Below, piece after piece: positions 30,281-43,242 of a DNA stretch of 53,767 nucleotides (position 1 is its first letter; every line of letters begins with the position of its first letter). A program made the position numbers and the translations under genes. Source of the DNA: a virus. Taxonomy: Duplodnaviria; Caudoviricetes. The stretch is taken from IMG/VR virus record IMGVR_UViG_3300021963_000162, positions 1-53,767 of that record; one strand, given 5' to 3'. The notes below the pieces were generated by a model. It searched no databases. It worked only from the letters and a program-made list of their open reading frames with translations, and was not told where the DNA came from.

Positions 30281-31681
30281 ATGTCAAATAAAAATACTAT
30301 CACATACGGTGCCAAAGTATCACAAATAGAACAGGTGTATTACGGGCCTGTTTCTGTGATTCCACCTTCAACTACAATACCAGTGACAACAACATATTGT
30401 TTTTTGTCTAAGGCAGAACCTTGGGAAGATGATTTAAATCCACCTGTACCAAATTCAGACCAAAAGGCAATCAAACAAATCTTTAAAAATATGTTTGTTG
30501 CCAAGAAAATTAAGTCAAATGATATTTCTCCTGTGATTGAGAGAATTGATTGGTCTAATGGTACAATATACGATATTTACCGTGATGATATTGATGTTTT
30601 AGAAAAAGATGTAAATGGTTATGTAAGATATCATTTTTATGTTAAGAACTCTTATGACCAAGTTTTCAAATGCCTTTGGAATAACAATGACGATGAGTCA
30701 ACTGATGAACCTTATTTTGAACCAGGTTCTTATGACACAAACAACATATTCAAAGGTTCGGATGGTTATAAATGGAAATACATTTACACAATTGATCCAG
30801 GTAAAAAAGTAAAATTCATGGATTCAGAATGGATGCCAGTGCCTGTTGGTGCAAATACTCCAAACCCATTAGTTACCAGTGCAGGTGCAGGAAGTATAGA
30901 CTCCATTAATGTGATTAATGGTGGGTCAGGATACGATCCAGGTAACTCCGTTATTACAGTTGTTGTAACTGGTGACGGAACAGGTGCGGCTGCCGTAGCC
31001 GACATATCTGGTGGTGTAATACAAGATATTTTAATAACAAATCCTGGTACTAATTACACATATACCGAGGCTCACATCAGTTCAACTACTGGTTCAGGTG
31101 CAGTATTGCAAGCCAATTCTTCTCCTATTGGTGGCCATGGGTTCGATCCTATTTCTGAATTGGGTTGTGCTCATGTAATGTATACTTGTGAATTCAATGG
31201 TGATGAAGATGGTGCCATACCAACCGATATAGATTTTCACCAACTTGGGTTACTAATCAACCCAACAACGCAAAGCAGATATTTGGATGCCAAAAACGAT
31301 TTATCACCAACACCATATCCAGCAAATGGTGATATATATAGAACAACCACAGATGTGATTGTTGCACCAGGTTTTGGAGAATATGAAAGTGATGAGTTTG
31401 TTTATCAAGGTGGATTAACAATAGAAACAGCCACATTTACAGCAAGAGTTTTAAGTTTTGACACCTCAAGCAATGTGGTTAAGTTGATAAATATATCTGG
31501 AAGTCCAATTACAAACGCACCACTTTTCAGCAATACATCTAAAACAACAAGAACATTACTAACAACTAGTGAACCAAATTTTACAATACATTCAGGATAT
31601 ATTTCCTTTATTGAAAACAGAACTGGTGTCACAAGAAGCGCTGACGGAATAGAACAAATTAGATTTGTATTAGGTTACTAA
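30281..31681 (+). CDS. gp8: Baseplate wedge subunit gp8
   Basis: R.DW..GT.YD.Y, FYV.N....VFKCL.N, DGYKWKY.YT, GGHG.DP..ELG and ENR....R...EQI motifs. Confidence 0.9.
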   Translation: MSNKNTITYGAKVSQIEQVYYGPVSVIPPSTTIPVTTTYCFLSKAEPWEDDLNPPVPNSDQKAIKQIFKNMFVAKKIKSNDISPVIERIDWSNGTIYDIYRDDIDVLEKDVNGYVRYHFYVKNSYDQVFKCLWNNNDDESTDEPYFEPGSYDTNNIFKGSDGYKWKYIYTIDPGKKVKFMDSEWMPVPVGANTPNPLVTSAGAGSIDSINVINGGSGYDPGNSVITVVVTGDGTGAAAVADISGGVIQDILITNPGTNYTYTEAHISSTTGSGAVLQANSSPIGGHGFDPISELGCAHVMYTCEFNGDEDGAIPTDIDFHQLGLLINPTTQSRYLDAKNDLSPTPYPANGDIYRTTTDVIVAPGFGEYESDEFVYQGGLTIETATFTARVLSFDTSSNVVKLINISGSPITNAPLFSNTSKTTRTLLTTSEPNFTIHSGYISFIENRTGVTRSADGIEQIRFVLGY

Positions 31682-31690
31682 AGGAAAAAA

Positions 31691-34600
31691 ATGGCTATCA
31701 ATTTTAATGTCAAACCGTACCACGATGACTTTGATCCTTCAAAGAATTTTCATAGAATCTTATTCAAACCAGGTTCTGCGGTTCAGGCTCGTGAATTAAC
31801 TCAATCACAAACAATACTACAAAGTCAAATTTCTAAGTTTGCTGATAACATTTTTTCACAAAATACACCAGTAACTGGTGGTAAAGTTACAACAAACTTA
31901 AATTGTAGTTACATTAAGTTAAACAAACAACAAAACAATATTGATATTGTTGCGTCAGATTTTAAGAATAGATTGATTCAAGATGCTAGTGGCACTATTC
32001 TTGCAAAGGTTGTTGCAACTGCTGAATCAATTGGCACAGATATTTCTTCTACTGAACCACCAACTTTGATTGTTAACTATCTGTCTGGTGTTCAGTTCAC
32101 AGACAACATGACTATCTATACAGCTGATGATTCTAATTACACTGCAACAACAATTGGTGTTGATGGTGAAACAACATGCACTGGGTTGGCATCAGTATCA
32201 TCCATTTCAGAAGGTGTTTTCTATGTTAGAAATGGTTACTACTCATCTCCAACACAAAATGAAGATGGTACATATAGCAAATATTCTATTGGTAATTTTG
32301 TTTCAGTTCAACCACAGACAACTATATTAAGCAAGTATAGTAATACACCTTCATTCCGTATTGGTTTACAAATTTATGAAACAATTGTGGACTATGTTGA
32401 TGATTCTTCATTATTGGATCCAGCAATTGGTGCATCAAATTATCAAGCACCAGGTGCAGACAGATATCAAATCAATTTAATATTGACCGCATTACCATTA
32501 ACAGTTGGTAATGATGACCAATTCATTGAGTTAGTTCGTATTGATAATGGTAAGATTGTTAAACAAGTTGACGGTACGGTTTATTCTGTAATTGATGATT
32601 ACTTTGCAAAGCGTGATTATGAATCCAATGGTGACTATATTGTTACTGAATTTAAAATTACACCATCAACAAACACAATCAATTCTTCTACATATGATTT
32701 GGGTATTGGAAAAGGCCTTGCATATGTACACGGTTATAGAATTGAAAATCAATCGAATCTTGTTCTTACAAACGACAGAGCTAGAACAACAGATAGTATT
32801 TTAAACAATGCCATCTTTATTGATTATGGTAGTTATTTGACCGTCAATAGTGTAAAAGGTACTTTTGATGTTACTACAATGCCAAAAATTGATTTGCATT
32901 GTGTTGGTAACTCAGGTATCTCTACGGCAAATACAACAACATATAATTCGACATTGGTTGGTTCTGCTAATATTAGAAACTTACAATATGTAAGTAGCAC
33001 CTCTGATAGTAATACCGCAACATATGTTTACAGAGCATACATCTCTGATGTTAGCACAACAACATTAACTGGTACTGCTGTGACTGGTACTGCAACAACC
33101 ATTTCATTGCCAGTTACTGCACAATTCTCTACTGTAACTGATGCATATTATGGTGCATCTATCACAGTCAATACTTCTGGTACAATAGATACTAGAAAAA
33201 TTACTGCATATAACGGTACAACTAGAGTTGCCACTGTTGATTCAGCGTTTACAATTAATCCAACAAATTCAAGCACCTTTACAATATCATTTTCTACCTC
33301 AACAGTAGAATCTATTGTTCGTAGAAACTCAAGTGATGTTATTATTTCAACTGCAAACATTGATTTGTCTGGTAAAAGAAATGGACTTGTTACTGGTGAT
33401 ACGATTCTAGAAAATCCAAACACACCTGAGTTGGTATTCCCTATTGGATACTCATACATAGCTAATGTATCCAATAGTAACTATGTTTCCACAAAAGTAT
33501 ATCGTGACCAAACAATCTCCGGTGGTGAATTATCAATTGCAATACCATCAGGAACACCATATACATTCTTAGGTACTTCTGGTGCATTATCATCTGATGT
33601 TAAAAAACAAAACTTTATTGTTATTGATAGAACATCAGGCCAAATTTTAGATTTTATTTCCAGTGGAAATACAATATCTCTTTCATCAGATAAAAAGACA
33701 GCAACATTTGCATCAAGCACTTATTCGGGTTATAATGTAGATGTTATTTGTGATTTGAATGTTTCAAATGCTGATAACACAAGCAGTATTTTGAAAATTA
33801 AAAACCTAGTTGAAGGTAACACAGGTGGTGTTCACATCAACGGCACACTTGTAAATACAAATTTCTATGTTGATTTAACCAACGGCCAAACATATATCAA
33901 AAGAGCTGGCATAACTAAAACAACCAGTTTATATGTGTCTGATGTTAAACAAATTGTTAAAATTATTGACACTAAGGATCCTACAGTCGATCCAACAGTT
34001 GCAATGTTAACTGATGCATCATATGATGTAACAAATCTATTCACATTGGATAATGGTCAAAGAGATAATTATTATGACCATGCATCGGTTAAATTAGTTT
34101 CTGGTGCAAATCTTCCAAAAGGTAACTTATTGGTCATATATGATTTCTACTCACACTCTGGTGGTGATGGTTACTTCAGTATCAAATCTTATTTGTCACC
34201 AAATTCTTCCTCTCCAGAAGTTTATCAAGAAATACCTACTTTCATAAGCAGACGAGGAACCAAATATAAATTATCCGACTGTGTTGATTTCAGACCAGTT
34301 AGAAAAAATGCTGTATCAACTTTAACATACAGATATACAGGAAACCCAACTGTTGACGATTCTGGTATTATGTTACCACAAAACTTGAATGAATATGTTA
34401 GTGATTATAGTTACTATCTTGGCAGAAAAGATAAATTGGTTTTGACCAAGGATCGTTCATTTAAAATTATTAGTGGCACACCTTCTGTAACGCCAGTATA
34501 TCCAACAGAACCTGATGGTTCATTGGTGTTGGCAAAATTAGACCACAATCCATACACTGCATTTATTCCAGGTGAAATTAGTGGACAAATCAACTCAGAC

Positions 34601-37084
34601 TTGTCTATTGAGAAAGTACTTCACAAAAACTGGGTCAAACGAGACATTACTGATTTGCAGACCAGAGTTAACAACCTTGAGTATTATTCATCATTGAGTT
34701 TGTTGGAATCTAATGCACAATCATTACAAGTACCAGATGTTAATGGTTTGAATCGTTTCAAGAACGGTATTCTTGTTGATGACTTCTCATCATACTCAAC
34801 AGCCGATACAGAAAATGCAGACTATGCTGCTAAAATTAATGTAAGAACTAAACAACTTACACCATTGACTTTGGTTGACAACTTCCAATTGCAAAACCCA
34901 ACTGTGTTGAATTCTTTAGGAACATTAAAGAAAACAAACAACTTTGCAATTTCAAGCATTTCTGGTACTAACACGAATGTATTTACTCTACCTTACACAA
35001 GTTCAAATGTTGTTATTCAACAACTAGCATCAAGCACAGTTAGTTTGAATCCATTTGGTGTTGCCATTTATGAAGGTGTTGCTAGACTTAACCCTCCAAT
35101 GGACAATTGGGTTGATAACACTCAAGCACCAGCCATTGTTGTGGTTGATCCTTCTATCGAAGTATACCAAGAAACAAATGGTGTAAACATTTTAAATGCT
35201 GGAGATTTTGCAACAATTCCAGGAACTTCTAGTTCATCATCAAGTTCATCTACAAGTGGACGAACAGTAACAACTACCACAAAAAATTATGCTGACCAAC
35301 TGAGAAATATTACTTCAGGAAGTTATTCACAAGTTTCTTCTACAATTGGAAGTGAGAATGGTTATCTGACCAATATTGCTGTTCTTCCATATATCAGAGC
35401 ACAACAAATTGTTTTCAAAGCTAAAGGCCTATTGGTTAACACTCCAGTAAACGCATACTTTGATGGTCAAGATGTTAGCCAATACATTCAAACACCAAAT
35501 ACAATTGAGTTGAAAGATGTTACTGGTACATTCAATGAAGATGATGTTGTTGGATTCTTTTACACAAATAAATTTTATCCAACAGCTCGTGTAGTTTCAA
35601 CATACAAATATCCAAACACAACAAAAGTTAGATTGTATGTTGCTAACTTACTTGGTGCACCAAATTATTCACCAACAAACTCCATTAGAAATGCTACATT
35701 CGATTCAAGTGGTGTTTATAGTGGCACAACCGCAAATGGTACAATTGATGATTCTGTTATTCCTTTATCAACATCGGGTGTAATTAGTGGCATTGGTGGA
35801 AGTTACACTGCTAACAATGAGCCTAATTTACAAATCTATAGGGTAAAAAACAGTCATGATTGGGGTACATTCTTAAATCAATATGGTGTTTGGGGTGATT
35901 TAAAACACACTGCAAGTTATTCAGCTTCATTTGTGTATGCACCACCAGAAACAGGAACATATACAATTCAATGTTCTTCAACAGGATCAGCAACTGTTAA
36001 ATCTAATACAACCACAATTGTTACATCTAGTGATCCAAAAACTGTAACTACCGCAACATTAAATATTACTAATTTAAATACTAGAACATTGTCTTGGACT
36101 GTTACTGGTTCAAATACAGGTTCTTCTGGATTTGCTTTGGTTATTAAAGATCCAAAAGGCAAAATTGTATTCCAGTCAACAAATCCTCCAAATTTAAATT
36201 ACGATTCAGTTGCACAGGAAATTATTTTGCCTCAAGGTGGTGCTTGGTTTACTGGTGTGACTAGATTGAAATTAGATTCACGAGCAACAAACATTGATGA
36301 TTATTATGTTGGTGCAAAAATCAATATAACAAGTAAATTCATACAAGAATATATTACCGAAACAGCCACATATGTTGCACCTAAAGCATCTAGTGGTGGT
36401 GGAGGTGGCGGCGGTTCAAATTGCTTTACATCAGAAACTATTGTTGATACCATAACTGGTAAAAAGAAAATTGTTGATATTAAAATTGGCGATAAAGTGT
36501 GGAACAAAAACAAAACTGAATTGAATACAGTTACTTTTGTCGAAAAAGCTTTGGATACAAATTTTGGTTCACTGTACACACCATCAAAAGATTTTGAACC
36601 GTTTGCGACTATCGAACATCCTTTGTATATTGATGGTAAATTGTCTGCTGTTGATCCTAAGGTGGTAGAAAATTATTATCCATGGTTAGGTAAAATGGAA
36701 AAAATTGATCCAGTGAAAGTTTCTCCGTCAGAAGGCAAAATGGTTTATAACCTATGGACCGATGGTGATGGAACATATACAGTTAATGGATATGGAACAA
36801 CAACAATCATTGGTGATGGTGGGGTGTTGAGATTGATGTTAGAAAAAGAAGTTGTGACTAACGATATTGTCGAAACGGTATTGAACACATGTATTTCTGC
36901 CGGAAAAGATACATCATATGGTGCTTATCTAATAAACAACACATTCGGCAAATTGAATGTCAGTCTTGTGAATAATTTACTGGTCAAAGCATTCAAAGAT
37001 GATACAAGTCCAAACACACGAAAAACTGTGATGACAATATTTAAACTGGTTGGAAAAATTGCTTGTATTATCAACAATAAATAA
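31691..37084 (+). CDS. Large virion structural protein (VrlC/DUF4815-like), N-terminal part, ending in a Hint domain
   Basis: NFNV.PY.DDFD..KNFHRILFKPG..VQARELTQ.Q, APGADR and NRFKNG..VD.F motifs; poly-Gly linker, then CFTSET...TIEHP...VYNL. Confidence 0.85.
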   Translation: MAINFNVKPYHDDFDPSKNFHRILFKPGSAVQARELTQSQTILQSQISKFADNIFSQNTPVTGGKVTTNLNCSYIKLNKQQNNIDIVASDFKNRLIQDASGTILAKVVATAESIGTDISSTEPPTLIVNYLSGVQFTDNMTIYTADDSNYTATTIGVDGETTCTGLASVSSISEGVFYVRNGYYSSPTQNEDGTYSKYSIGNFVSVQPQTTILSKYSNTPSFRIGLQIYETIVDYVDDSSLLDPAIGASNYQAPGADRYQINLILTALPLTVGNDDQFIELVRIDNGKIVKQVDGTVYSVIDDYFAKRDYESNGDYIVTEFKITPSTNTINSSTYDLGIGKGLAYVHGYRIENQSNLVLTNDRARTTDSILNNAIFIDYGSYLTVNSVKGTFDVTTMPKIDLHCVGNSGISTANTTTYNSTLVGSANIRNLQYVSSTSDSNTATYVYRAYISDVSTTTLTGTAVTGTATTISLPVTAQFSTVTDAYYGASITVNTSGTIDTRKITAYNGTTRVATVDSAFTINPTNSSTFTISFSTSTVESIVRRNSSDVIISTANIDLSGKRNGLVTGDTILENPNTPELVFPIGYSYIANVSNSNYVSTKVYRDQTISGGELSIAIPSGTPYTFLGTSGALSSDVKKQNFIVIDRTSGQILDFISSGNTISLSSDKKTATFASSTYSGYNVDVICDLNVSNADNTSSILKIKNLVEGNTGGVHINGTLVNTNFYVDLTNGQTYIKRAGITKTTSLYVSDVKQIVKIIDTKDPTVDPTVAMLTDASYDVTNLFTLDNGQRDNYYDHASVKLVSGANLPKGNLLVIYDFYSHSGGDGYFSIKSYLSPNSSSPEVYQEIPTFISRRGTKYKLSDCVDFRPVRKNAVSTLTYRYTGNPTVDDSGIMLPQNLNEYVSDYSYYLGRKDKLVLTKDRSFKIISGTPSVTPVYPTEPDGSLVLAKLDHNPYTAFIPGEISGQINSDLSIEKVLHKNWVKRDITDLQTRVNNLEYYSSLSLLESNAQSLQVPDVNGLNRFKNGILVDDFSSYSTADTENADYAAKINVRTKQLTPLTLVDNFQLQNPTVLNSLGTLKKTNNFAISSISGTNTNVFTLPYTSSNVVIQQLASSTVSLNPFGVAIYEGVARLNPPMDNWVDNTQAPAIVVVDPSIEVYQETNGVNILNAGDFATIPGTSSSSSSSSTSGRTVTTTTKNYADQLRNITSGSYSQVSSTIGSENGYLTNIAVLPYIRAQQIVFKAKGLLVNTPVNAYFDGQDVSQYIQTPNTIELKDVTGTFNEDDVVGFFYTNKFYPTARVVSTYKYPNTTKVRLYVANLLGAPNYSPTNSIRNATFDSSGVYSGTTANGTIDDSVIPLSTSGVISGIGGSYTANNEPNLQIYRVKNSHDWGTFLNQYGVWGDLKHTASYSASFVYAPPETGTYTIQCSSTGSATVKSNTTTIVTSSDPKTVTTATLNITNLNTRTLSWTVTGSNTGSSGFALVIKDPKGKIVFQSTNPPNLNYDSVAQEIILPQGGAWFTGVTRLKLDSRATNIDDYYVGAKINITSKFIQEYITETATYVAPKASSGGGGGGGSNCFTSETIVDTITGKKKIVDIKIGDKVWNKNKTELNTVTFVEKALDTNFGSLYTPSKDFEPFATIEHPLYIDGKLSAVDPKVVENYYPWLGKMEKIDPVKVSPSEGKMVYNLWTDGDGTYTVNGYGTTTIIGDGGVLRLMLEKEVVTNDIVETVLNTCISAGKDTSYGAYLINNTFGKLNVSLVNNLLVKAFKDDTSPNTRKTVMTIFKLVGKIACIINNK
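36422..36805 (+). other. Hint (intein/Hedgehog-like) autoprocessing domain lacking the terminal His-Asn
   Basis: Block A CFTSET (Cys1578), I.DIKIGDKV, block B TxxH (TIEH), block F VYNL...TYTVNG; block G reads YGTTT. Confidence 0.8.
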
Positions 37085-37105
37085 TAGATTACTTGGAAAA
37101 AATAA

Positions 37106-39295
37106 ATGGCATATACATACAAAATATCACCAGCACAAATTATTCAAAGTGTTTCGACCTACACAGCTAATGTAACAGCTTACGATGCAGATACTGGTAT
37201 AGTCACACTCGACAAAGGTGTGAATATATCACTAGGCCACAATGAATCTGTTGGTGACTTAACCTCACAATACAGTTTAATTGGTAACATCACGAATGTC
37301 TCTAGTGCTATTAAAAATGGAACAGGATTACCTCAATTGTCTACAGATGAGGGTGGTAATTTTGTTGGTATCTTTAATGTACCATCAGGTGTATTTCAAA
37401 CAGGACAAAGAGTATTTCGTGTAGATAATAGAAGTGTTCCATCTCAACCAACAACTGCAACGACTTTTGCAGAAGCAACATTTACTGCATCTGGACTTGC
37501 AACAACTTCTCAAAAATTAGAATTTTCACCATCAATTGATTCTGCTGCATCTTCTTTTACGCAAGTTGGTCAAAGAAACAATCAATTAATAAGCACAACA
37601 GTGATTACAAGGCAACTTCCTGGAGATCCTGTTGCACAGTCTTTCATTATACAAAAAGACAATTTCCCAAATGGTCTTTTCCTTAAATCAATCAAAGTAT
37701 TTTTCTATTCTAAACCAACAACAGATGTACCAGTTAAGTTATCTATTGTTAATACATTGAATGGTTATCCTAATGGTCAAAGATTGGATCATTCAACAGT
37801 TGTTTTAAGTTCAAGTCAAGTTGTTACATCTAAAACACCACACTATTTGGATTCTTCCACATATACTGAGTTTGTTTTTGAAGCACCAGTATACATTCAA
37901 CCTGGTATATTGTATGCATTTATGTTGGAAACCAGTTCACCTGATTACCAAGTTTACTATGCACAACAAAATTCAACAGCTGTTTTATCAACAGCAAAAG
38001 AGAAACCAACCGATGCAAATCCAACAAACCCAACAAAAATTGGTGCTTCACCATATGTTGGTGCATTATTTGAATCACAAAACTCAATAACATGGACTGC
38101 TGACCAAACAAAAAATATGATGTTTGTTATTGATAGATGTGTATTCGATACATCTAAAAATCCAACAATTGATTTCACATTACAAAAAGGTTTACCATAT
38201 AGAAAAATTGGTTCAAATGACATTCAACATTTATTGGATGCAAATAATGTCAGCAATTTGCATGGCAATTTCTCCGACACTACTTGGTCTGACGCAGTTA
38301 ATTTGACCACAACAGATTTCACACCTGCTGCGACAGGAATTAACTATAGTTACTCAGCAACACTTGCAGAGGACAATTCTGTTATAGGACCATTTGAAGT
38401 ATCTCCTGGAAAATTAGGTTCGCCAACACCTGAGAACATAGATTTTGATGATGGACAAGGACAAAGAGTATTCTTGAAAGAAAGTAATACTTCATTTAAA
38501 TTATCAGCATCACTATTATCAACTGATGACAGTGTAACTCCAATCATTTCAGATGATGGTGTATCTGTATACAATATTCGTTATATTATTAACAATATGG
38601 AAATACAAAATAATGTAATTTCATTGGTTGAAGTTGGTGCAGGTTATGATGATGCAGCAAATACAATAGCAGAAATTTCTGCACCAGATATTGGATCAAA
38701 CCAAGCAACATTGGGTGTAAATGTTGCAAACAACGGAACATCAAATGTTGTTTCTTCCTTATATGTTATTAATCCAGGTTCTGGTTACATTACAACACCA
38801 ACAATTACCATTTATGGTGCCAATACAACACAGGCTACTGCGGTTGTATTTGGTGAAACATCACCAAAAGGTGGTAATTCTTATGCCAAGTATTTCACTA
38901 AGAAAGTTGTGTTGACTCCAGAAAATGATTCTGGTGATTTGAGGGTGTTCTATACCGCATACAAACCACTAGGCACAAGAGTGGATGTATATTACAAAAT
39001 TCTAAATCGTAACGACACACAAGATTTTGATGATGCAAATTGGAACTTGATGACTCAAGTTGGAAACCAAAACGCATACTCACAATCAAAAACAAATTTG
39101 ATTGAGTTTGAGTGTGCGCCAGGAACTTTAGGTAAGGCTGATAATTTCATTTCTTACACAAGTGAAACTGGTGAAACATATAGTCAATTCAGTCAGTTTG
39201 CAATCAAAGTTGTAATGTCTTCCGCTGATAGTACTATTATTCCTATAATAACAGACATTCGTGCATTGGCATTACCAGCTGGAACAGGCATTTGA
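37106..39295 (+). CDS. Large virion structural protein, C-terminal part
   Basis: F.TG.R.FR, DPVAQSF, GLFL.SI..FF..K, GALF.SQN..TWTADQ and FAIKVVM...P.I.D.RA.A motifs, normally the C-half of the same protein; AATAAATA at 37076-37083 upstream. Confidence 0.85.
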   Translation: MAYTYKISPAQIIQSVSTYTANVTAYDADTGIVTLDKGVNISLGHNESVGDLTSQYSLIGNITNVSSAIKNGTGLPQLSTDEGGNFVGIFNVPSGVFQTGQRVFRVDNRSVPSQPTTATTFAEATFTASGLATTSQKLEFSPSIDSAASSFTQVGQRNNQLISTTVITRQLPGDPVAQSFIIQKDNFPNGLFLKSIKVFFYSKPTTDVPVKLSIVNTLNGYPNGQRLDHSTVVLSSSQVVTSKTPHYLDSSTYTEFVFEAPVYIQPGILYAFMLETSSPDYQVYYAQQNSTAVLSTAKEKPTDANPTNPTKIGASPYVGALFESQNSITWTADQTKNMMFVIDRCVFDTSKNPTIDFTLQKGLPYRKIGSNDIQHLLDANNVSNLHGNFSDTTWSDAVNLTTTDFTPAATGINYSYSATLAEDNSVIGPFEVSPGKLGSPTPENIDFDDGQGQRVFLKESNTSFKLSASLLSTDDSVTPIISDDGVSVYNIRYIINNMEIQNNVISLVEVGAGYDDAANTIAEISAPDIGSNQATLGVNVANNGTSNVVSSLYVINPGSGYITTPTITIYGANTTQATAVVFGETSPKGGNSYAKYFTKKVVLTPENDSGDLRVFYTAYKPLGTRVDVYYKILNRNDTQDFDDANWNLMTQVGNQNAYSQSKTNLIEFECAPGTLGKADNFISYTSETGETYSQFSQFAIKVVMSSADSTIIPIITDIRALALPAGTGI

Positions 39296-39296
39296 T

Positions 39297-39524
39297 ATGT
39301 TGGTTAAAGTTACAGGCACCCCTTTTGTTAGAGATAGCAACAGTATGGGACTTATTAACAATGATGACCATGCAAGAAATGATTACTATAATAAAGTCCG
39401 TATGATGAAATCACAAAAAGACGAAATAAATAAAGTAAAGACAGAAGTGGAAAGCATCAAGAATGATGTATCTGAAATCAAATCTCTGTTGTTACAACTA
39501 ATGGATAAAGGTTCAAATGGCTAA
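39297..39524 (+). CDS. Small conserved coiled-coil virion-region protein
   Basis: KV.G...VRD..S..IN and EI..IK.DV.EIKSLL motifs; conserved after the VrlC-like gene. Confidence 0.75.
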   Translation: MLVKVTGTPFVRDSNSMGLINNDDHARNDYYNKVRMMKSQKDEINKVKTEVESIKNDVSEIKSLLLQLMDKGSNG

Positions 39525-42500
39525 TACAGTTTCCTCATTAAGTTATGCCAATACATTTGGTGAATGGATGGTTGCAACGGATGCTCTCATTAATGAGAAC
39601 AATATTCTTGCAACCGACAATTACACCAAAGATTCTGGTACACTTTACCTTAACGAATCAACAGCAGTAGCACTACAGACAACAGGTTCGGTTGTCATAC
39701 AAAAAGAATTGTTGGTTCAAGGTGTTGGTTCATCTGCAACAATCGAAAATAACTTAACTGTTGAAGGCCAAGTATATTTCTCCAACACTGAATTAGGTTT
39801 AACAAATGCCGGTCAGGCAAACATCAATGGTTTGTTGGTCGCAAGAGGAAGTGGTATAGGTTTATCTGTTTCTAATAGTGCTTATATTGGTGGCAACACT
39901 ACTATAAAATATGATACAATTACAAATAACTTACAAGCCAACTCAAGTGTAAATACTGCAACCTTATCAGTAACTGGTAATGTATATACAAATACATTAG
40001 AAGCAAATGCACACATCAGTGCAACCACAGTTTCTGCTTCAGATTTCACACATACACATTACTTGAGAGCTAATATATCCACATCTACAGTAACATCAGT
40101 TGTTTCTGGCACAGCATACGCAAATGTTTTGCAAGCCAATACTTCTACCAATACTGGTAATGCTTCCATAACTGGTACAGTTTATACAAAAAATTTACAA
40201 TCAAACACATCAGTTAATACCGCAACATTGTCTGTAACAGGGAATACATTTACGGATTTATTGCAAGCAAATAGTTCAGTTAATACCGCTAATGCTTCCA
40301 TAACTGGTACAGTTTATACAAATATATTGGAAGCCAATACTTCCACAAATACTGCAACAGCTTCCGTAACAGGTACAACATACACTGATATATTAGAAGC
40401 AAATACAATTGTAAGTACAGTTGATTTAACTGCATCTGGTGCAATCATTTCAGATACTTTAGAGTCAAATACATCTATTGATTCACCATATATTTCAACA
40501 ACTAATTTAAATAGTTCTGATATTGTTTATGCAAATGTGTTACAAGCAAATACATCTACAAATACCAGTAATGCTTCTGTAACTGGAACTGTTTATACAA
40601 AAAATTTGCAAGCAAACAATACAGTTAACACTTCAACAATCTCTGTTACAAATGAAACTATAACTAATGTTTTAAGAGCTAATAGTAGTGTTGGTGCTGT
40701 TGATGTTCTTGGCACAAATATCACTGCCAATACAGTTGTAACTACACCAAAAATTACAATCACTGAGTTGATTGATGCGAATAATGCCAACTTGTTTGTA
40801 AACAACATAACATCTGAAGGCCAATTTTCTATTGGTGGTAATTTTGTTGTTAGAGGAACAACAGTTTATACCTCAGATTCATTTGCATTGAATTCTGACA
40901 TAGACCAAGCGGCAGATGCTGAGTACACAGTAGACCGTGGTGTCACAGGTACAGATGCTTCCATTCGTTGGAAAGAAACATCAAAGTATTTTGATATTAA
41001 AAATGTAACAAGCGGTATATATTACAGAATTCTTACAAATGAGCATTTAGATTCTACATTAACTTCTACAAGTACAACATCAGTTGCAACAGCCAGTGCG
41101 GCGAACAATCTGAATAATATTATAACCGCAGCAAATACATTCTTACAATCTGCGGTTGTTGCTGCTGGAAGTTATGCAAACTCATCGTTTGTTAAAGCCA
41201 ATTCAGCATTTGATGCTGCAAACAATGTTGGTCCACAAATTGCACCAACATTTACTAAGGCCAATTCTGCCTATGCACAAGCTAACACATCATCAAATAC
41301 ATTTGTTGGAACAACAGGTTCAGTTACTCCAAACGGTGGTGTAGTATCATTTACAAGTAACAATGGTGTTACTGTTGTTGCAACGACTGCTAATAATTTT
41401 GCAATCAGTACACCACAAGACTTACAAACAACTGCAAATGTAACATTTGCAAGATTACAATTAACTAATGCATTACCTATTAATCAAGGTGGTACTGGTG
41501 CAACATCAGCAACAGGTGCATTAACAAACTTGTTACCAACTGGTACAACCGCAGGTTATGTTCTAACAACTGGTGGTCCAGGTAACTTCTCTTGGGCTGC
41601 ACCAACAGGTGGTGGTGATGGCGGTACCGCACCAGGAACAACAATCAATTCTACAAGATTGACCTATTATGGTGATGATGCAAATACAAAATTCACCACA
41701 CCAACATTCAATAACACAACACAATTGAGAGCATACATTAATGGTTTGCGTCAATTTGAAGGCAATTATTCCGCAAATAGTTCAAACTCAACTATTATTT
41801 TCACTGAAGCACCAGATCCTGGTGATGAAATTTTGATTGAAGTTGATGGATATATTTTAAATCCATATTATGCAAACAATATTACATTTACTGCACCTTT
41901 TGGTAGCATTATTGGTTCTGCTAATACTATTCAATTGGCAATACAAGACTTAGAAACTAGAAAAGCTCCATTATCTGGAGGTGAATTTACTGGTACAGTT
42001 TATGGTTTAACAGCAGCAACAACTACAAATGATAACACATTTGCAACAACGGAATTTGTTAATAACCTATTAGGTTCTAGTCAAACATTTTCAATTAACA
42101 CTTCTGGTAATGCAGGATCAGTAACGAATGGTGTTTATAACAACGGCAGTTATTCTAATCCTTCTTGGATTACATCACTTGCAACCAGTAAACTTACTGG
42201 TACAATTTCTGCAACACAATTAGCATCAACAACTGTCACAGCAGCATCAAATGGTTCTGCAACTCATGTTCCTCGTTTCACAGTTGATGCACAAGGTCGT
42301 TTAACTTCTGCAAACTCTGTTGCAATTGCAATTTCTTATTCTGCTGTTTCTGGTTTGGCCACATCGGCAACTACAGATACAACCAATGCAAGTAATATTA
42401 CTACTGGTACATTGAATACTGCAAGATTAGGAACAACACAAGATGTTCAATTTGCAAACACATATGCGAAAGAAATAACTTCAAATACATCATCCACATC

Positions 42501-43242
42501 AGGTACTTTCTTCTTTGGTGATAGAAGTAAATTCATAAGATTTGATGGCACAAATTATTTAATGCCAGGTGCAAACCTATTTTCAAATGGAACACAAGTT
42601 GTTACTAATACAGGTACTTGGGGTATTAATATTTCAGGCAAAGCAGCAACTGCTGGTAATGCTGACACAGTAACTAATGGTGTATATACATCTGGCGCAA
42701 CACTTTCAAATGCATTTTATTTTACTTCAGGATTGTCAGTAGGATCAACATCAATATCAGGCAATCTTATTGCTTTGGGTAGTTCAACAACAGCTGCAAC
42801 CATGACTTTTAGAAGAAGTGATTTGTCTTCAGTAAATATGGGTTTAGATACTGATGGTACATTCCGTTTAGGTGGTGGAACTGACGGGGCAACCACTTAT
42901 AGATTTACTTCAGATACATCAGGTAACTTCGTTTCAAGAGGTAATGTAACGGCATACTCTGATGAACGAAACAAAACTAATTGGCAAGTTCTTCAGAATA
43001 ATTTTGTAGAAGAACTTGCTAAAGTTAAATCTGGTACCTATGATAGAGTTGATACAGGTGAAACTCAAGTTGGTGTTGGTGCTCAATCATTACAAAAACT
43101 TATGCCAGAAGCAGTTATGTCTGATGCAGAAGGCAATCTTTCTGTTGCATATGGTAATGCTGCATTAGCCGCATGTGTTAAAATGGCACAAAAAATTGTA
43201 GAACTAGAAGCCAAGATTGAAGAATTGACCAAAGGAAAATAA
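39517..43242 (+). CDS. Long tail fibre with C-terminal intramolecular chaperone (peptidase S74)
   Basis: NTF.EW N-motif; ~20-aa LQAN.S.NT...SVTG repeats; GNVTAY|SDERNK, GV.AQ and V.YG motifs, then a coiled coil. Confidence 0.85.
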   Translation: MANTVSSLSYANTFGEWMVATDALINENNILATDNYTKDSGTLYLNESTAVALQTTGSVVIQKELLVQGVGSSATIENNLTVEGQVYFSNTELGLTNAGQANINGLLVARGSGIGLSVSNSAYIGGNTTIKYDTITNNLQANSSVNTATLSVTGNVYTNTLEANAHISATTVSASDFTHTHYLRANISTSTVTSVVSGTAYANVLQANTSTNTGNASITGTVYTKNLQSNTSVNTATLSVTGNTFTDLLQANSSVNTANASITGTVYTNILEANTSTNTATASVTGTTYTDILEANTIVSTVDLTASGAIISDTLESNTSIDSPYISTTNLNSSDIVYANVLQANTSTNTSNASVTGTVYTKNLQANNTVNTSTISVTNETITNVLRANSSVGAVDVLGTNITANTVVTTPKITITELIDANNANLFVNNITSEGQFSIGGNFVVRGTTVYTSDSFALNSDIDQAADAEYTVDRGVTGTDASIRWKETSKYFDIKNVTSGIYYRILTNEHLDSTLTSTSTTSVATASAANNLNNIITAANTFLQSAVVAAGSYANSSFVKANSAFDAANNVGPQIAPTFTKANSAYAQANTSSNTFVGTTGSVTPNGGVVSFTSNNGVTVVATTANNFAISTPQDLQTTANVTFARLQLTNALPINQGGTGATSATGALTNLLPTGTTAGYVLTTGGPGNFSWAAPTGGGDGGTAPGTTINSTRLTYYGDDANTKFTTPTFNNTTQLRAYINGLRQFEGNYSANSSNSTIIFTEAPDPGDEILIEVDGYILNPYYANNITFTAPFGSIIGSANTIQLAIQDLETRKAPLSGGEFTGTVYGLTAATTTNDNTFATTEFVNNLLGSSQTFSINTSGNAGSVTNGVYNNGSYSNPSWITSLATSKLTGTISATQLASTTVTAASNGSATHVPRFTVDAQGRLTSANSVAIAISYSAVSGLATSATTDTTNASNITTGTLNTARLGTTQDVQFANTYAKEITSNTSSTSGTFFFGDRSKFIRFDGTNYLMPGANLFSNGTQVVTNTGTWGINISGKAATAGNADTVTNGVYTSGATLSNAFYFTSGLSVGSTSISGNLIALGSSTTAATMTFRRSDLSSVNMGLDTDGTFRLGGGTDGATTYRFTSDTSGNFVSRGNVTAYSDERNKTNWQVLQNNFVEELAKVKSGTYDRVDTGETQVGVGAQSLQKLMPEAVMSDAEGNLSVAYGNAALAACVKMAQKIVELEAKIEELTKGK

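What the first reader, a model, noticed from the sequence alone, without database searches (positions are those of the whole stretch)
36390..37130. Giant virion protein split in two, with the first half capped by a poly-Gly linker and a splice-deficient Hint domain
Seen: ...SSGGGGGGGSN|CFTSET...TIEHP...VYNL...VNGYGTTT, then about 90 further residues and a stop. The remainder of the VrlC/DUF4815-like protein restarts 21 nt later with its own late-promoter-like AATAAATA. Known: Cys1 plus TxxH suffices for N-S acyl shift and N-terminal cleavage, but the terminal Asn is needed for splicing. Hedgehog-type Hints use a downstream module to transfer the N-fragment to a nucleophile. Inference: an autoprocessing module that cleaves off, or covalently ligates the virion protein to a partner (possibly the second half) or a small molecule.
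Basis: partly seen in the sequence, partly recalled or inferred. Interest (0 to 1): 0.72.

Follow-up and report, generated by a model that had tools for sequence, protein, structure and literature searches.

The report
Self-cutting Hint cap on split baseplate protein
A T4-like phage encodes its giant VrlC baseplate protein as two genes, and the first piece ends in a flexible glycine tether carrying a Hedgehog/intein-type domain plus a conserved helical tail that most likely cuts itself off; the same undescribed end-cap sits on many virion proteins of uncultured phages.

Summary
ORF 31691-37084 (1797 aa) and ORF 37106-39295 (729 aa) are the two halves of one VrlC/DUF4815 (phrog_358) baseplate protein. 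They lie in the same frame, separated by three in-frame stops. Unsplit orthologs of 2170-2398 aa exist. The first half ends in a Gly7 tether, a complete Hint fold (pLDDT 95; Z 14.7 to BIL2, 11.9 to Hedgehog) and a 91-aa helical tail. Cys1 and the His of TxxH are invariant in 127 of 127 relatives, and there is no terminal His-Asn.

The Hint+tail cassette occurs in 211 protein clusters and is always C-terminal. It is almost only viral and absent from 50,697 deposited phage genomes. It marks breaks at three or more sites in VrlC and in a second family (phrog_24848).

At this same break, related phages carry two unrelated Cys-initiated caps or no cap. The second half's N-terminus tracks phylogeny, not cap type.

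Best reading (0.5): an optional self-cleaving end-cap, with the halves reassembling non-covalently. Ligation is not supported but not excluded. No paper describing it was found. This scan noted the same thing before on other DNA. No cleavage has been shown. The complex prediction never ran.

The parts
31691..37084 (+). First gene: VrlC/DUF4815 N-part plus end-cap (1797 aa, P0001)
   Evidence: ORF list and translation. PF16075 DUF4815 at E 3.3e-53. phrog_358 at E 5e-228, residues 2-1318 to profile 4-1275.
31691..35812 (+). Residues 1-1374, collinear with unsplit orthologs
   Evidence: BLASTP of P0001 3-1374 against P0073 2-1374 gives 49% identity.
35813..36235 (+). Residues about 1375-1515: inserted beta-rich domain, weakly PA14-like. 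Absent from the 2170-aa unsplit orthologs and present in the 2334-2398-aa ones.
   Evidence: No counterpart in P0073. PA14 at E 0.012, 15.9 bits, below the cutoff of 24. Aligned in L106, L096 and L115.
36236..36382 (+). Residues 1516-1564: first strands of a small domain whose remaining strands are encoded in the second gene, ending in the ATYVAP motif
   Evidence: Weak match to P0073 1379-1411 (E 0.039). Collinear with unsplit L106, L096 and L115.
36383..36421 (+). Tether KASS-G7-SN. The predicted scissile bond is Asn1577|Cys1578.
   Evidence: Sequence. In 127 relatives, positions -13 to -2 are 33% Gly and 11% Pro, and residue -1 is Gly in 57 and Asn in 3.
36422..36808 (+). Hint domain, residues 1578-1706 (Cys1578, Thr1640-x-x-His1643, no terminal His-Asn)
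   Evidence: Model pLDDT 95.4. Z 14.7, 13.6, 13.3 and 11.9 to BIL2, gp41-1 intein, C. thermocellum BIL and Hedgehog. C1578, F1579 and H1643 in 127 of 127, T1640 in 126 of 127.
36809..37081 (+). Conserved helical tail, residues 1707-1797 (five helices packed on the Hint domain)
   Evidence: Helices at model positions 135-218, pTM 0.89 for the two-domain unit. Conserved with the Hint domain in relatives. Only generic helical matches, Z <= 5.3.
37082..37105 (+). Break: TAA TAG, 15 nt, TAA, all three stops in the frame of both genes
   Evidence: Read from the sequence. Gaps of 19-34 nt at the same break in relatives.
37076..37083 (+).
   Evidence: 8 copies against 7.98 expected. All on the + strand, 5-85 nt before ORF starts. 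TATAAATA occurs 2 times against 5.9 expected.
37106..39295 (+). Second gene: VrlC C-part (729 aa, P0002)
   Evidence: phrog_358 at E 2.9e-90, profile 1271-1615. 51% identity to P0073 1455-2172. 932 deposited phage records hold relatives annotated VrlC-like or adsorption-associated tail protein.
37106..37159 (+). Head of the second half (residues 1-18), the other side of the interrupted loop
   Evidence: Collinear with the 45-50-aa loop of unsplit L106, L096 and L115. Head sequence types are shared between phages with different caps.

Best explanation
This is an optional, self-processing end-cap on the first half of a split VrlC baseplate protein.

Seen directly or computed here:
- VrlC is encoded as two genes, broken inside a long surface loop of a small domain.
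- The first product carries, after a Pro/Gly tether, a complete Hint fold plus a conserved 91-aa helical tail.
- The residues for the first Hint step (Cys1, Thr-x-x-His) are invariant across the family.
- The residues for intein step 3 (terminal His-Asn) and a C-extein nucleophile are absent.

Inferred:
- After folding, Cys1578 attacks the Asn1577 carbonyl (N-S acyl shift).
- The thioester is resolved, most simply by water. This releases the mature N-half ending at Asn1577 and discards the Hint+tail as a 220-aa fragment.
- The two VrlC pieces come together non-covalently by completing the interrupted small domain, giving a baseplate protein equivalent to the one-piece form.

The role of the helical tail is open. 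It may be an assembly or tethering aid before cleavage, or a Hedgehog-like helper that chooses the acceptor.

The cap belongs to a set of interchangeable C-terminal cassettes that recombine among virion genes of uncultured phages.
For: Fold and residues:
- pLDDT 95.4 and pTM 0.89.
- 28 solved Hint chains at Z >= 8. Foldseek E 9.5e-7 to BIL2. Profile E 5e-6.
- C1578, F1579, H1643 and D1693 in 127 of 127, and T1640 in 126 of 127.
- The structural alignments to mini-inteins end at model residues 129-130 (Thr-Ile; family consensus Ser-Ile), where inteins have His-Asn.

Always a terminal cap:
- Of 144 proteins matched through query position 205, 143 end within 25 aa of the match.

General-purpose module, not VrlC-specific:
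- 211 clusters at E <= 1e-3.
- Of 80 viral loci, 37 carriers are VrlC N-parts and 39 loci show neither a VrlC N-part carrier nor a VrlC C-part downstream. The carriers include phrog_24848 proteins, gp5-like hubs and Gly-rich proteins, and cargos of only 40-90 aa.
- A tree of the cap needs 10 carrier switches, at least 3 of them forced by well-supported branches.

Optional at this site:
- One-piece orthologs are collinear with N-half minus cap plus C-half.
- Two unrelated caps occupy the same break.
- Two split relatives, L141 and L160, end a few residues after a Gly run with no cap.

Chemistry precedent:
- Type B BILs lack block G and only cleave. Thr B:7 and His B:10 act at the N-terminal junction (PMC4031507, passages read).

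Functional analogy:
- The next tail-fibre gene, 39517-43242, ends in a self-cleaving Peptidase_S74 chaperone.
Against: - No cleavage has been observed. Everything rests on conserved residues and a predicted fold.
- Hydrolysis as the fate of the thioester is assumed, not shown.
- A 91-aa tail that is as conserved as the Hint domain and packed on it suggests more than simple self-removal, as in Hedgehog.
- The long Pro/Gly tether would not be needed merely for cleavage.
- The repeated coincidence of the cap with gene breaks is not explained by a plain removable cap. There are three or more sites in VrlC plus phrog_24848.
- Residue -1 here is Asn, which is rare in the family (3 of 127), so its effect on cleavage is unknown.
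- Non-covalent reassembly of the halves is inferred from collinearity only. The complex prediction meant to test it never ran.
Confidence: 0.5

Rival explanations
1. Thioester transfer rather than hydrolysis. The Hint domain activates the C-terminus of the N-half, and the helical tail helps hand it to a nucleophile. That could be the free alpha-amine of the separately translated C-half, which would re-create a one-piece VrlC. It could also be a lysine of a neighbouring virion protein (isopeptide cross-link), or a lipid or small molecule, as in Hedgehog.
For: - The cap sits exactly at gene breaks in two protein families and at three or more VrlC sites.
- The break lies in a loop. The two loose ends (13 + 18 residues after the ATYVAP motif) would span a loop like that of the one-piece orthologs.
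- The architecture cargo-G|CF-Hint-tail copies the Hog layout (PMC2362128, passages).
- The best structural match, BIL2, makes a Lys-epsilon to C-terminus isopeptide (PMC8616854, section 2.4 passages).
- Type A BILs ligate by attack of a free amino group on the thioester, without a side-chain nucleophile (PMC4031507, passages). A separately translated second half would supply such an amine without Asn cyclisation.
- Near-invariant acidic residues (E1618 in 125 of 127, D1693 in 127 of 127) have no assigned role.
Against: - 39 of 80 loci have neither a VrlC carrier nor a VrlC second half. gp5-like carriers are followed by gp25- and gp6-like genes, not a second half.
- Unrelated non-Hint caps, and no cap at a nearby break, serve related split VrlC genes.
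- C-half heads are shared across cap types. Their second residue is just small (A, S, P, G or T), with no conserved Cys/Ser/Thr.
- The tail matches no solved fold above noise, so no acceptor-binding site can be argued.
Confidence: 0.2
2. Selfish or neutral intein-derived cassette. A Hint+tail unit ending in a stop codon spreads by recombination into loops of virion genes and breaks them in two. It persists because the halves still assemble and precise loss is rare. Any self-cleavage merely limits the damage.
For: - Presence, absence and replacement all occur at one site among close relatives. The C-half tree needs 6 state changes on 49 rows.
- The cap has moved between carrier families: 10 changes, at least 3 forced.
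- Tandem arrays of up to four canonical Hint copies precede the terminal cap in relatives such as P0018 and P0029.
- The cap is nearly confined to viral contigs: 89 confirmed viral stretches, against 3 loci in one genome for each of 185,579 species.
Against: - No homing endonuclease or other mobility gene lies in or beside the cassette here.
- Cys1, TxxH and the whole tail show strong purifying selection across 127 sequences.
- The cap is always fused in frame through a tether, including to tiny cargos. This looks like a used module.
- The AU test does not reject a single origin of this break (p 0.396), so repeated invasion of this site is not demonstrated.
Confidence: 0.15
3. Permanent tethered domain. 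The cap is not removed. It stays on the baseplate at the end of its flexible tether and acts there, for example as a membrane- or surface-contacting knob. The conserved Cys/His would serve another purpose.
For: - The long Pro/Gly tether.
- The two alternative caps end in hydrophobic helices. For type 3, the median best 19-aa hydropathy is 1.76, and 27 of 35 sequences reach 1.6 or more. The model has a 36-residue terminal helix.
- The Hint tail ends in an amphipathic, basic helix.
Against: - The invariant residues are exactly the N-S acyl-shift set.
- The Hint tail itself is not membrane-like: window 1.08, and 5 of 32 sequences reach 1.6 or more.
- Every characterised Hint domain with Cys1 and TxxH processes its N-terminal junction (PMC4031507, passages).
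Confidence: 0.08
4. Assembly artefact or dying pseudogene at the break.
For: The record is a single metagenomic fragment: 53,767 bases, CheckV completeness 32.
Against: - The same break, with its own ATG and a 19-34-nt gap, is found on many independent contigs at 50-96% identity.
- There are three in-frame stops.
- Both halves and the cap are conserved.
Confidence: 0.01

Closest known systems
Hog domain of Hedgehog and Hedgehog-related proteins (Hint plus sterol/adduct-recognition region; PMC2362128, passages read)
   Same: - Extreme C-terminal position.
- Junction small residue | Cys-Phe (C and F in 127 of 127; Gly at -1 in 57 of 127).
- A complete Hint fold without a terminal Asn (Z 11.9 to 1at0).
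- A conserved extension of about 90 aa after the Hint.
- The same module fused to many unrelated N-terminal cargos, some only 40-90 aa long.
   Different: - No sequence-level membership: Pfam Hint PF01079 at E 0.087.
- Motifs J, K and L were not examined.
- The cargo is a cytoplasmically assembled phage baseplate protein, not a secreted signal.
- The tail has no detectable relation to any solved fold.
- No adduct is known.
Bacterial intein-like (BIL) domains, types A and B, including Tetrahymena BIL2 (PMC4031507 and PMC8616854, passages read)
   Same: - Hint domains without a C-extein nucleophile, in which cleavage dominates.
- Type B lacks block G, as here.
- Best structural matches: BIL2 at Z 14.7 and C. 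thermocellum BIL 2lwy at Z 13.3.
- Type-A-like copies ending in His-Asn stand in tandem in front of the terminal cap in relatives.
   Different: - The terminal Hint is welded to a conserved helical tail and always ends the protein.
- It is nearly confined to phage contigs.
- It sits at gene breaks.
- No BIL-specific profile was available to test membership.
Fractured genes with split inteins in phage and metagenome DNA (for example gp41-1; Dassa et al. 2009, recalled and not read here; named in earlier scan notes)
   Same: A phage gene in two pieces with Hint sequence at the break. The gp41-1 intein is the second-best structural match (Z 13.6).
   Different: - The whole Hint fold is on the first piece.
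- The second piece has no C-intein lobe. Its 18-residue head is collinear with the loop of one-piece orthologs.
- There is no His-Asn, no +1 nucleophile, and no endonuclease gene in the 21-nt gap.
Peptidase_S74 intramolecular chaperone of phage fibres and spikes (PF13884; PMC7824862, passage read)
   Same: A self-cleaving C-terminal module on large phage tail proteins that is swapped between genes. The neighbouring fibre gene 39517-43242 has one.
   Different: Unrelated fold and Ser-Lys chemistry. A chaperone role for the Hint tail is only an analogy.
PT-HINT of polymorphic toxins (PF07591; PMC3482391, abstract and passages read)
   Same: This is the best Pfam hit. It is a Hint that releases whatever lies on one side of it at the end of a very large protein.
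   Different: - The hit is sub-threshold: 24 bits against a cutoff of 27.7.
- What follows the Hint is one conserved tail, not a variable toxin.
- The next gene is the rest of VrlC, not an immunity gene.

Membership tests
HINT superfamily (fold level) | Disk-shaped Hint beta fold | tested here: met
   Model pLDDT 95.4. 28 solved Hint chains at Z >= 8, top Z 14.7 with rmsd 2.5 over 125 residues. 27 Foldseek matches at E <= 1e-3.
HINT superfamily (fold level) | N-terminal Cys/Ser nucleophile and block B Thr-x-x-His | tested here: met
   C1578 and H1643 in 127 of 127, T1640 in 126 of 127. Cys and TxxH align with BIL2 in the profile alignment.
Pfam PT-HINT / Hint_2 / Hint (sequence families) | Score at or above the curated gathering cutoff | tested here: not met
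   PT-HINT 24.0 bits against 27.7. Hint_2 17 against 28.4. Hint 12.8 against 29.7. Some relatives do carry precomputed Hint-family hits.
Class 1 intein | C-terminal His-Asn (block G) followed by a Cys/Ser/Thr C-extein in the same chain | tested here: not met
   The structural alignments end at Thr-Ile (family consensus Ser-Ile). A 91-aa tail and a stop follow. Equivalence is judged from alignment ranges only.
Class 1 intein | Splices the flanking host sequences together | not testable with these tools
   Needs expression and mass spectrometry.
Split intein / fractured gene | C-intein lobe (blocks F and G) at the start of the downstream gene product | tested here: not met
   All Hint strands are in P0001. 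P0002 residues 1-18 continue the loop of one-piece orthologs, and residue 19 onward aligns to P0073 from 1455.
Type B bacterial intein-like domain | Hint with N-terminal nucleophile and no similarity to intein block G; cleavage uncoupled from splicing | tested here: inconclusive
   The first two features are met. No type B profile or member was available for direct comparison, and cleavage was not tested.
Type A bacterial intein-like domain | C-terminal His-Asn without a +1 nucleophile | tested here: not met
   Not met for the terminal Hint of this window. Met by the upstream tandem Hints of relatives P0018, P0029 and P0033, which end in VHNK.
Hog domain (Hedgehog-type) | Hint followed by a C-terminal SRR/ARR extension, at the end of a cargo, with junction G|CF | tested here: met
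   The architecture is met.
Hog domain (Hedgehog-type) | Sequence motifs J, K and L; transfer of the cargo to a sterol or other adduct | not tested
   The motifs were not compared. PF01079 scores only E 0.087. The chemistry needs experiment.
PT-HINT polymorphic toxin module | Variable toxin domain after the Hint and an adjacent immunity gene | tested here: not met
   The tail is conserved together with the Hint across 127 sequences. The next gene is the VrlC C-part.
VrlC / DUF4815 / phrog_358 baseplate protein (the carrier) | Profile match over the whole family length, and position after the gp8-like wedge gene | tested here: met
   PF16075 at E 3.3e-53. phrog_358 at E 5e-228 and 2.9e-90 on consecutive profile parts. 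The gp8-like gene 30281-31681 lies upstream. Same synteny in L002 and L004.

The most novel reading that the evidence does not exclude
The Hint cap is one half of a gene-level trans-ligation device. Because the second half is translated separately, it already has the free alpha-amine that type A BILs must first create by Asn cyclisation. Completion of the interrupted small domain would bring that amine next to the Asn1577 thioester, and aminolysis would rebuild a one-piece VrlC. More generally it would rejoin any virion protein broken by this cassette, without a C-intein, a terminal Asn or a nucleophilic side chain.
Probability: 0.12. Interest if true: 0.9.

Novelty: new variant of a known kind. 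Interest (0 to 1): 0.6.

Why it matters
Hint domains are known as inteins, Hedgehog/Hog modules, BILs and pre-toxin processors. If this reading holds, this is a fifth setting. It is a large family (211 clusters at 50% identity) with its own conserved helical tail, nearly confined to phages. It caps virion proteins and often sits exactly where their genes are broken in two.

It would matter in four ways:
- Annotation: giant marine and freshwater phage structural genes are being called as two unrelated ORFs.
- Baseplate assembly: VrlC is reported to replace T4 gp7 in pelagi- and cyanomyophages (PMC7029224, passages).
- The evolution of Hog-like architectures outside eukaryotes.
- Protein engineering: a compact module of about 220 aa that generates a C-terminal thioester after almost any cargo.

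The finding that two unrelated Cys-initiated caps replace it at the same site points to a wider, unexplored class of swappable C-terminal cassettes on phage tail proteins.

Tried and rejected
- **Complex prediction.** The job was the N-half tail (alignment A7) with the C-half head (alignment A2, residues 1-170). The job never ran, so there is no result either way.
- **Fold of the helical tail.** The best non-Hint matches were Z 5.3-4.5, to parts of SlrP, Mcf, SspH1 and IpaH. This is within the noise the tool states for helical bundles. No fold is assigned.
- **ESM Atlas look-up of the tail.** The best score was 0.91, to an unnamed viral cluster. The other hits were Hint-labelled clusters. Nothing usable came of it.
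- **Single-sequence search of solved structures.** Only chance hits (E 0.47 and above).
- **NCBIfam.** No family for either half or the cap.
- **DNA search of deposited phages with 35500-38500.** No match.
- **Homology between the three caps.** hhalign probabilities were 0.2-0.3%. Rejected at sequence level.
- **Nesting of one-piece genes inside the split clade.** The quick tree suggested it, but the AU test does not reject a single split clade (p 0.396). The claim is dropped.
- **PA14 identity of the inserted domain.** Only sub-threshold hits: E 0.012, 0.0057 and 0.022 in 3 of 3 proteins scanned. Kept as a lead only.
- **AATAAATA as a promoter.** Its count equals chance.
- **Split intein reading.** Rejected (see the membership test).
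- **Literature.** Six searches and passages of seven papers turned up no description of this cap. Subscription journals are outside the library.


Full report
**What the window is.** The record is a 53,767-base linear viral fragment with CheckV completeness 32. It is AT-rich, at about 35% G+C around the finding. The region is the tail and baseplate block of a T4-like myophage:
- A gp8-like wedge gene at 30281-31681 (Pfam Phage-Gp8 E 3.3e-9; phrog_438 E 7.9e-79).
- The two ORFs of the finding.
- A tail-fibre gene at 39517-43242 ending in a Peptidase_S74 self-cleaving chaperone.

The carrier is a VrlC/DUF4815/phrog_358 protein (PF16075 E 3.3e-53). Relatives occur in 932 deposited phage records, all below 60% identity. 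They are annotated VrlC-like or adsorption-associated tail protein. A pelagimyophage study reports VrlC as a core gene next to gp8. It appears to replace T4 gp7 and is considered part of a two-layered baseplate (PMC7029224, passages read). That paper does not mention a split or a Hint domain ('intein' 0 occurrences).

ORF 31691-37084 (1797 aa) ends ...KASS-G7-SN|CFTSET...ATIEHP...VYNLW...YTVNGYGTTT, plus 92 residues. ORF 37106-39295 (729 aa) starts 21 nt later in the same frame. TAA (37082), TAG (37085) and TAA (37103) all lie in frame between them. phrog_358 matches P0001 residues 2-1318 to profile 4-1275, and P0002 residues 17-397 to profile 1271-1615. The two ORFs are therefore consecutive parts of one family protein.

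**One-piece orthologs exist.**
- L002 and L003 (2173 aa) and L004 (2170 aa) sit in the same position, after a 458-aa gp8-like ORF.
- P0001 3-1374 aligns to P0073 2-1374 at 49% identity. P0002 19-728 aligns to P0073 1455-2172 at 51%.
- A wider scan with a C-half alignment kept the best 80 of 574 confirmed stretches. In 68 of those 80 loci the C-part lies in the same ORF as an N-half match. Two loci are cut by the locus end. Ten are split.

**The break lies inside a domain.** The N-half ends with strands of the type YYVG-x-I-x-I-T-S and the motif ATYV(A/P)P. The C-half begins, after an 18-residue head, with Y-T-A-x-(I/V)-T-A-Y-D...ATL. An earlier copy of this small motif in the same protein has a short loop between the two parts.

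Larger one-piece orthologs show what an uninterrupted version looks like. These are L106 (2334 aa), L096 (2359 aa) and L115 (2398 aa).
- They contain the extra beta-rich domain that the window has at residues about 1375-1515.
- They are collinear with N-half minus cap plus C-half. In L106 the N-tail aligns to 1399-1590 (E 1e-34) and the C-head to 1617-1726 (E 2e-28).
- A 45-50-aa loop follows the (A/I)(T/I)Y(V/L/Y)PP motif.

That extra domain is only weakly PA14-like (E 0.012, 15.9 bits against a cutoff of 24).

**The cap is a genuine Hint domain plus a conserved tail.**
- Alone, the window's sequence is sub-threshold in Pfam: PT-HINT 24 bits against 27.7, Hint_2 E 0.0078, Hint E 0.087.
- An exhaustive HMMER search of 1.84 billion cluster representatives found 211 proteins at E <= 1e-3, 138 at <= 1e-10 and 89 at <= 1e-30.
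- A profile of 32 short members hits solved Hint domains. BIL2 (6tmm/6y75) scores E 4.9e-6, with Cys1 and TxxH aligned. PI-SceI scores 3e-5, C. thermocellum BIL 1.4e-3 and Sonic hedgehog 0.018.
- The AlphaFold model has pLDDT 95.4 and pTM 0.89. Strands run to position about 128 and five helices span 135-218.
- Foldseek gives 27 matches at E <= 1e-3.
- VIA-align against 48,161 chains gives 28 chains at Z >= 8. BIL2 scores Z 14.7 (rmsd 2.5 over 125 residues), gp41-1 intein 13.6, C. thermocellum BIL 13.3, Vint 12.3 and Hedgehog 1at0 11.9.
- The tail has only generic helical matches, Z <= 5.3.

**Conservation picks out the first-step chemistry.** The alignment holds 127 sequences: the query plus 126 that match from position 1-2 through position 205.
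- C1578, F1579, V1614, F1638, H1643 and D1693 are invariant.
- T1640, W1665 and N1612 are present in 126 of 127.
- E1618 is present in 125 of 127 and N1699 in 124 of 127.
- The structural alignments to mini-inteins end at model residues 129-130 (Thr1705-Ile1706; family consensus Ser-Ile), where inteins have His-Asn. This equivalence rests on alignment ranges, not a residue-level superposition.
- Residue -1 is Gly in 57, Val in 21, Asp in 13 and Asn in only 3 of 127. Positions -13 to -2 are 33% Gly and 11% Pro.

According to the intein review, Thr B:7 and His B:10 act at the N-terminal junction. Type B BILs lack block G and only cleave. Type A BILs can ligate by attack of a free amino group on the thioester (PMC4031507, passages read).

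**The cap is a general C-terminal cassette of phage virion proteins.**
- I compared 211 proteins in a local search. Of these, 144 match through query position 205, and 143 of the 144 end within 25 aa of the match. The exception ends 26 aa after it. The other 67 match only partly. Two of them, P0196 and P0204, continue for 238 and 540 aa but match the Hint part alone.
- Carriers range from 209 to 2878 aa. Some have cargos of 40-90 aa. Others are Gly-rich proteins or peptidase S8 proteins.
- Relatives such as P0018, P0029 and P0033 carry four canonical Hint copies ending in VHNK, in tandem before the terminal cap.
- In viral contigs, 89 of 182 candidate stretches were confirmed and 80 kept.
- In one genome for each of 185,579 prokaryote species, only 3 loci were found, all in MAGs.
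- In 50,697 deposited phage records there were none.

**Link with gene breaks.** The 80 viral loci have 75 distinct carriers.
- 37 carriers match the VrlC N-part.
- 30 have a next ORF that matches the C-part.
- 26 show both.
- 4 show only the C-part. Three have short carriers of 394-449 aa and one carrier is cut by the locus end.
- 11 show only the N-part.
- 39 show neither.

Against the one-piece reference P0073, the breaks fall at three or more places:
- About 1380/1450 (this window's clade).
- About 1600/1607. Here the second gene starts MKPIGQTF. Examples are L014, L018, L022 and L030.
- About 1184/1213 (L078).

A second family shows the same thing. The L064 carrier matches phrog_24848 profile 3-394 of 799. 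The next ORF overlaps it by ATGA and matches profile 388-795.

The cap is not restricted to breaks. The gp5-like hub proteins L037 and L070 carry it and are followed by gp25- and gp6-like genes.

**Alternative caps at the same break.** The ten split loci divide as follows:
- One carries the Hint cap (L085).
- Four carry a 118-aa module starting (C/G)CV-x-AT, here called type 2.
- Three carry a 160-180-aa module starting IIC-x-KL-x-x-G, here called type 3.
- Two (L141, L160) end a few residues after a Gly run with no module.

Type 3 is itself widespread.
- 112 confirmed viral stretches were found and 80 kept, giving 81 ORFs.
- Cys is present at its position in 80 of the 80 that could be scored.
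- It always lies within 45 aa of the C-terminus.
- 25 carriers are VrlC N-parts, and 21 have a C-part downstream.
- In L203 it follows a canonical Hint ending in VHNK.

Type 2 was found in 10 loci, 9 of them on VrlC. The three caps show no profile similarity. The type 3 model is all-helical (pLDDT 87.2) with a terminal helix at 135-170. Its best 19-aa hydropathy has a median of 1.76, against 1.2 for the Hint tails and 1.08 for this window.

**Evolutionary pattern.**
- On a tree of 49 C-parts, the four states (one-piece, Hint, type 2, type 3) need 6 changes. Three is the minimum possible, the shuffled mean is 24.5, and 0 of 200 shuffles are as low. Caps have therefore been exchanged among close relatives.
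- The window sits in a clade of 7 Hint-capped genes (support 100).
- The quick tree puts four one-piece genes inside the split clade. However, an AU test does not reject all 28 split genes forming one clade (p 0.396). I therefore make no claim about repeated gain or loss of the break.
- A tree of 62 cap sequences (39 on VrlC, 23 on other carriers) needs 10 carrier switches, at least 3 of them forced by well-supported branches.

**Does the cap talk to the second half?** The heads of the C-parts follow phylogeny, not cap type.
- MSYNY-type heads occur with the Hint cap (L019) and with type 3 (L107, L209, L169, L090).
- MTT(L/Q)-type heads occur with Hint (L021), type 3 (L200 and others) and type 2 (L249 and others).
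- The second residue is small (A, S, P, G or T) in the rows printed. Across all break types it also includes Lys (MKPIGQTF), and there is no conserved Cys/Ser/Thr.

This argues against a cap-specific docking site on the second half. It does not exclude proximity-driven aminolysis.

**Mechanism.** I commit to a self-processing, removable end-cap at confidence 0.5. The proposed steps are an N-S acyl shift at Asn1577|Cys1578, resolution of the thioester (most simply by water), release of the mature N-half, and non-covalent completion of the interrupted domain with the C-half.
- Shown here: the split, the fold, the conserved first-step residues, the missing third-step residues, the terminal position, and the optional and exchangeable nature of the cap.
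- Inferred: cleavage itself, its acceptor, the reassembly of the halves, and any role of the tail.

Rivals:
- Thioester transfer or ligation (0.2). Precedents are BIL2 isopeptide formation (PMC8616854, section 2.4 passages) and type A BIL aminolysis.
- A selfish or neutral cassette (0.15).
- A permanent tethered domain (0.08).
- An artefact (0.01).

**Prior knowledge and novelty.**
- PHROG authors list phrog_358 as of unknown function with conflicting annotations (PMC8341000, passage).
- Six full-text searches found no description of a Hint+tail cap on phage virion proteins or of a split VrlC. Subscription journals are not covered.
- This scan has noted the same phenomenon before on other DNA. 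I consulted those AI notes only after my own analysis. They agree with it and are not independent evidence.
- I class the finding as a new variant of a known kind: a Hint autoprocessing module with Hog-like architecture, in a new setting.

**Limits.**
- No experiment has been done.
- The complex prediction never ran because the queue was full.
- The tail's fold remains unassigned.
- Residue equivalences to intein blocks F and G, and to the Hedgehog catalytic Asp, were not tested at residue level.

Noticed in passing
L090:7227-7769, L088:6951-7430, L107:8438-8971 and 80 loci L168-L247: A second widespread C-terminal cap, here called type 3. It is 150-180 aa long and starts (K/S)-I-I-C-x-K-L-x-x-L-G after a Gly run. 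Cys is present in 80 of the 80 ORFs that could be scored. The model is all-helical (pLDDT 87.2) and ends in a hydrophobic helix. It matches no Pfam family. It sits on VrlC N-parts (25 of 81 ORFs) and on many other carriers, and in L203 it follows a canonical Hint ending in VHNK.
   Followed up: partly
L091:7998-8351, L087:8600-8959, L089:7833-8183, L094:8623-8976; loci L248-L257: A third cap, here called type 2. It is about 118 aa long and starts (C/G)-C-V-x-A-T after the Gly run. It has a hydrophobic stretch near its end and matches no Pfam family. It was found in 10 viral loci, 9 of them at this same VrlC break.
   Followed up: partly
model m890b4fd83e07 residues 131-221 and model m5ef4e3d1480c residues 1-165: The Hint tail and the type 3 cap have no sequence similarity. 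Yet both have the same weak top structural hits: the same part of the NEL domains of SlrP (Z 5.3 and 5.2), SspH1 (4.7 and 4.9) and IpaH (4.5 and 4.8). This is within the noise for helical bundles, but the coincidence could mean the two caps share a helical fold.
   Followed up: no
P0018 (L010:473-7666), P0029, P0033: Relatives carry tandem arrays of four canonical Hint domains, each running from CF... to ...VHNK. The arrays lie between the cargo and the terminal Hint+tail cap. In P0018 this array sits at the same VrlC break.
   Followed up: partly
L064:5729-8952 (also L060, L065, L066, L080, L084): A second virion-protein family, phrog_24848, is split exactly at a Hint+tail cap. The carrier matches profile 3-394 and the next ORF, overlapping by ATGA, matches profile 388-795.
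   Followed up: partly
L037:5894-7663 and L070:6206-7696: gp5-like baseplate hub proteins (N-terminal hub domain only) end in the Hint+tail cap. They are followed by gp25- and gp6-like genes, so the cap sits where T4 gp5 has its lysozyme and beta-helix.
   Followed up: partly
window 1868, 21064, 30269, 37076, 39425, 46910, 50484, 51461: AATAAATA occurs at the chance count (8 against 7.98 expected). However, all 8 copies are on the + strand, 5-85 nt upstream of an ORF start. This may reflect a late-promoter-like or gene-end signal.
   Followed up: partly
window 39517-43242: The neighbouring 1241-aa tail-fibre gene ends in a Peptidase_S74 self-cleaving chaperone (E 1.7e-7). This phage therefore uses two unrelated self-processing C-terminal modules on adjacent tail genes.
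   Followed up: no
P0120, P0149, P0038, P0044, P0051, P0079, P0082: In some carriers a hydrophobic, membrane-helix-like stretch runs right up to the Hint Cys1, in place of a Gly tether.
   Followed up: no
L141 and L160 (upstream ORFs of 1414 and 1183 aa): These are split VrlC genes whose first half ends a few residues after a Gly run, with no cap at all. They could be cap-loss remnants.
   Followed up: no
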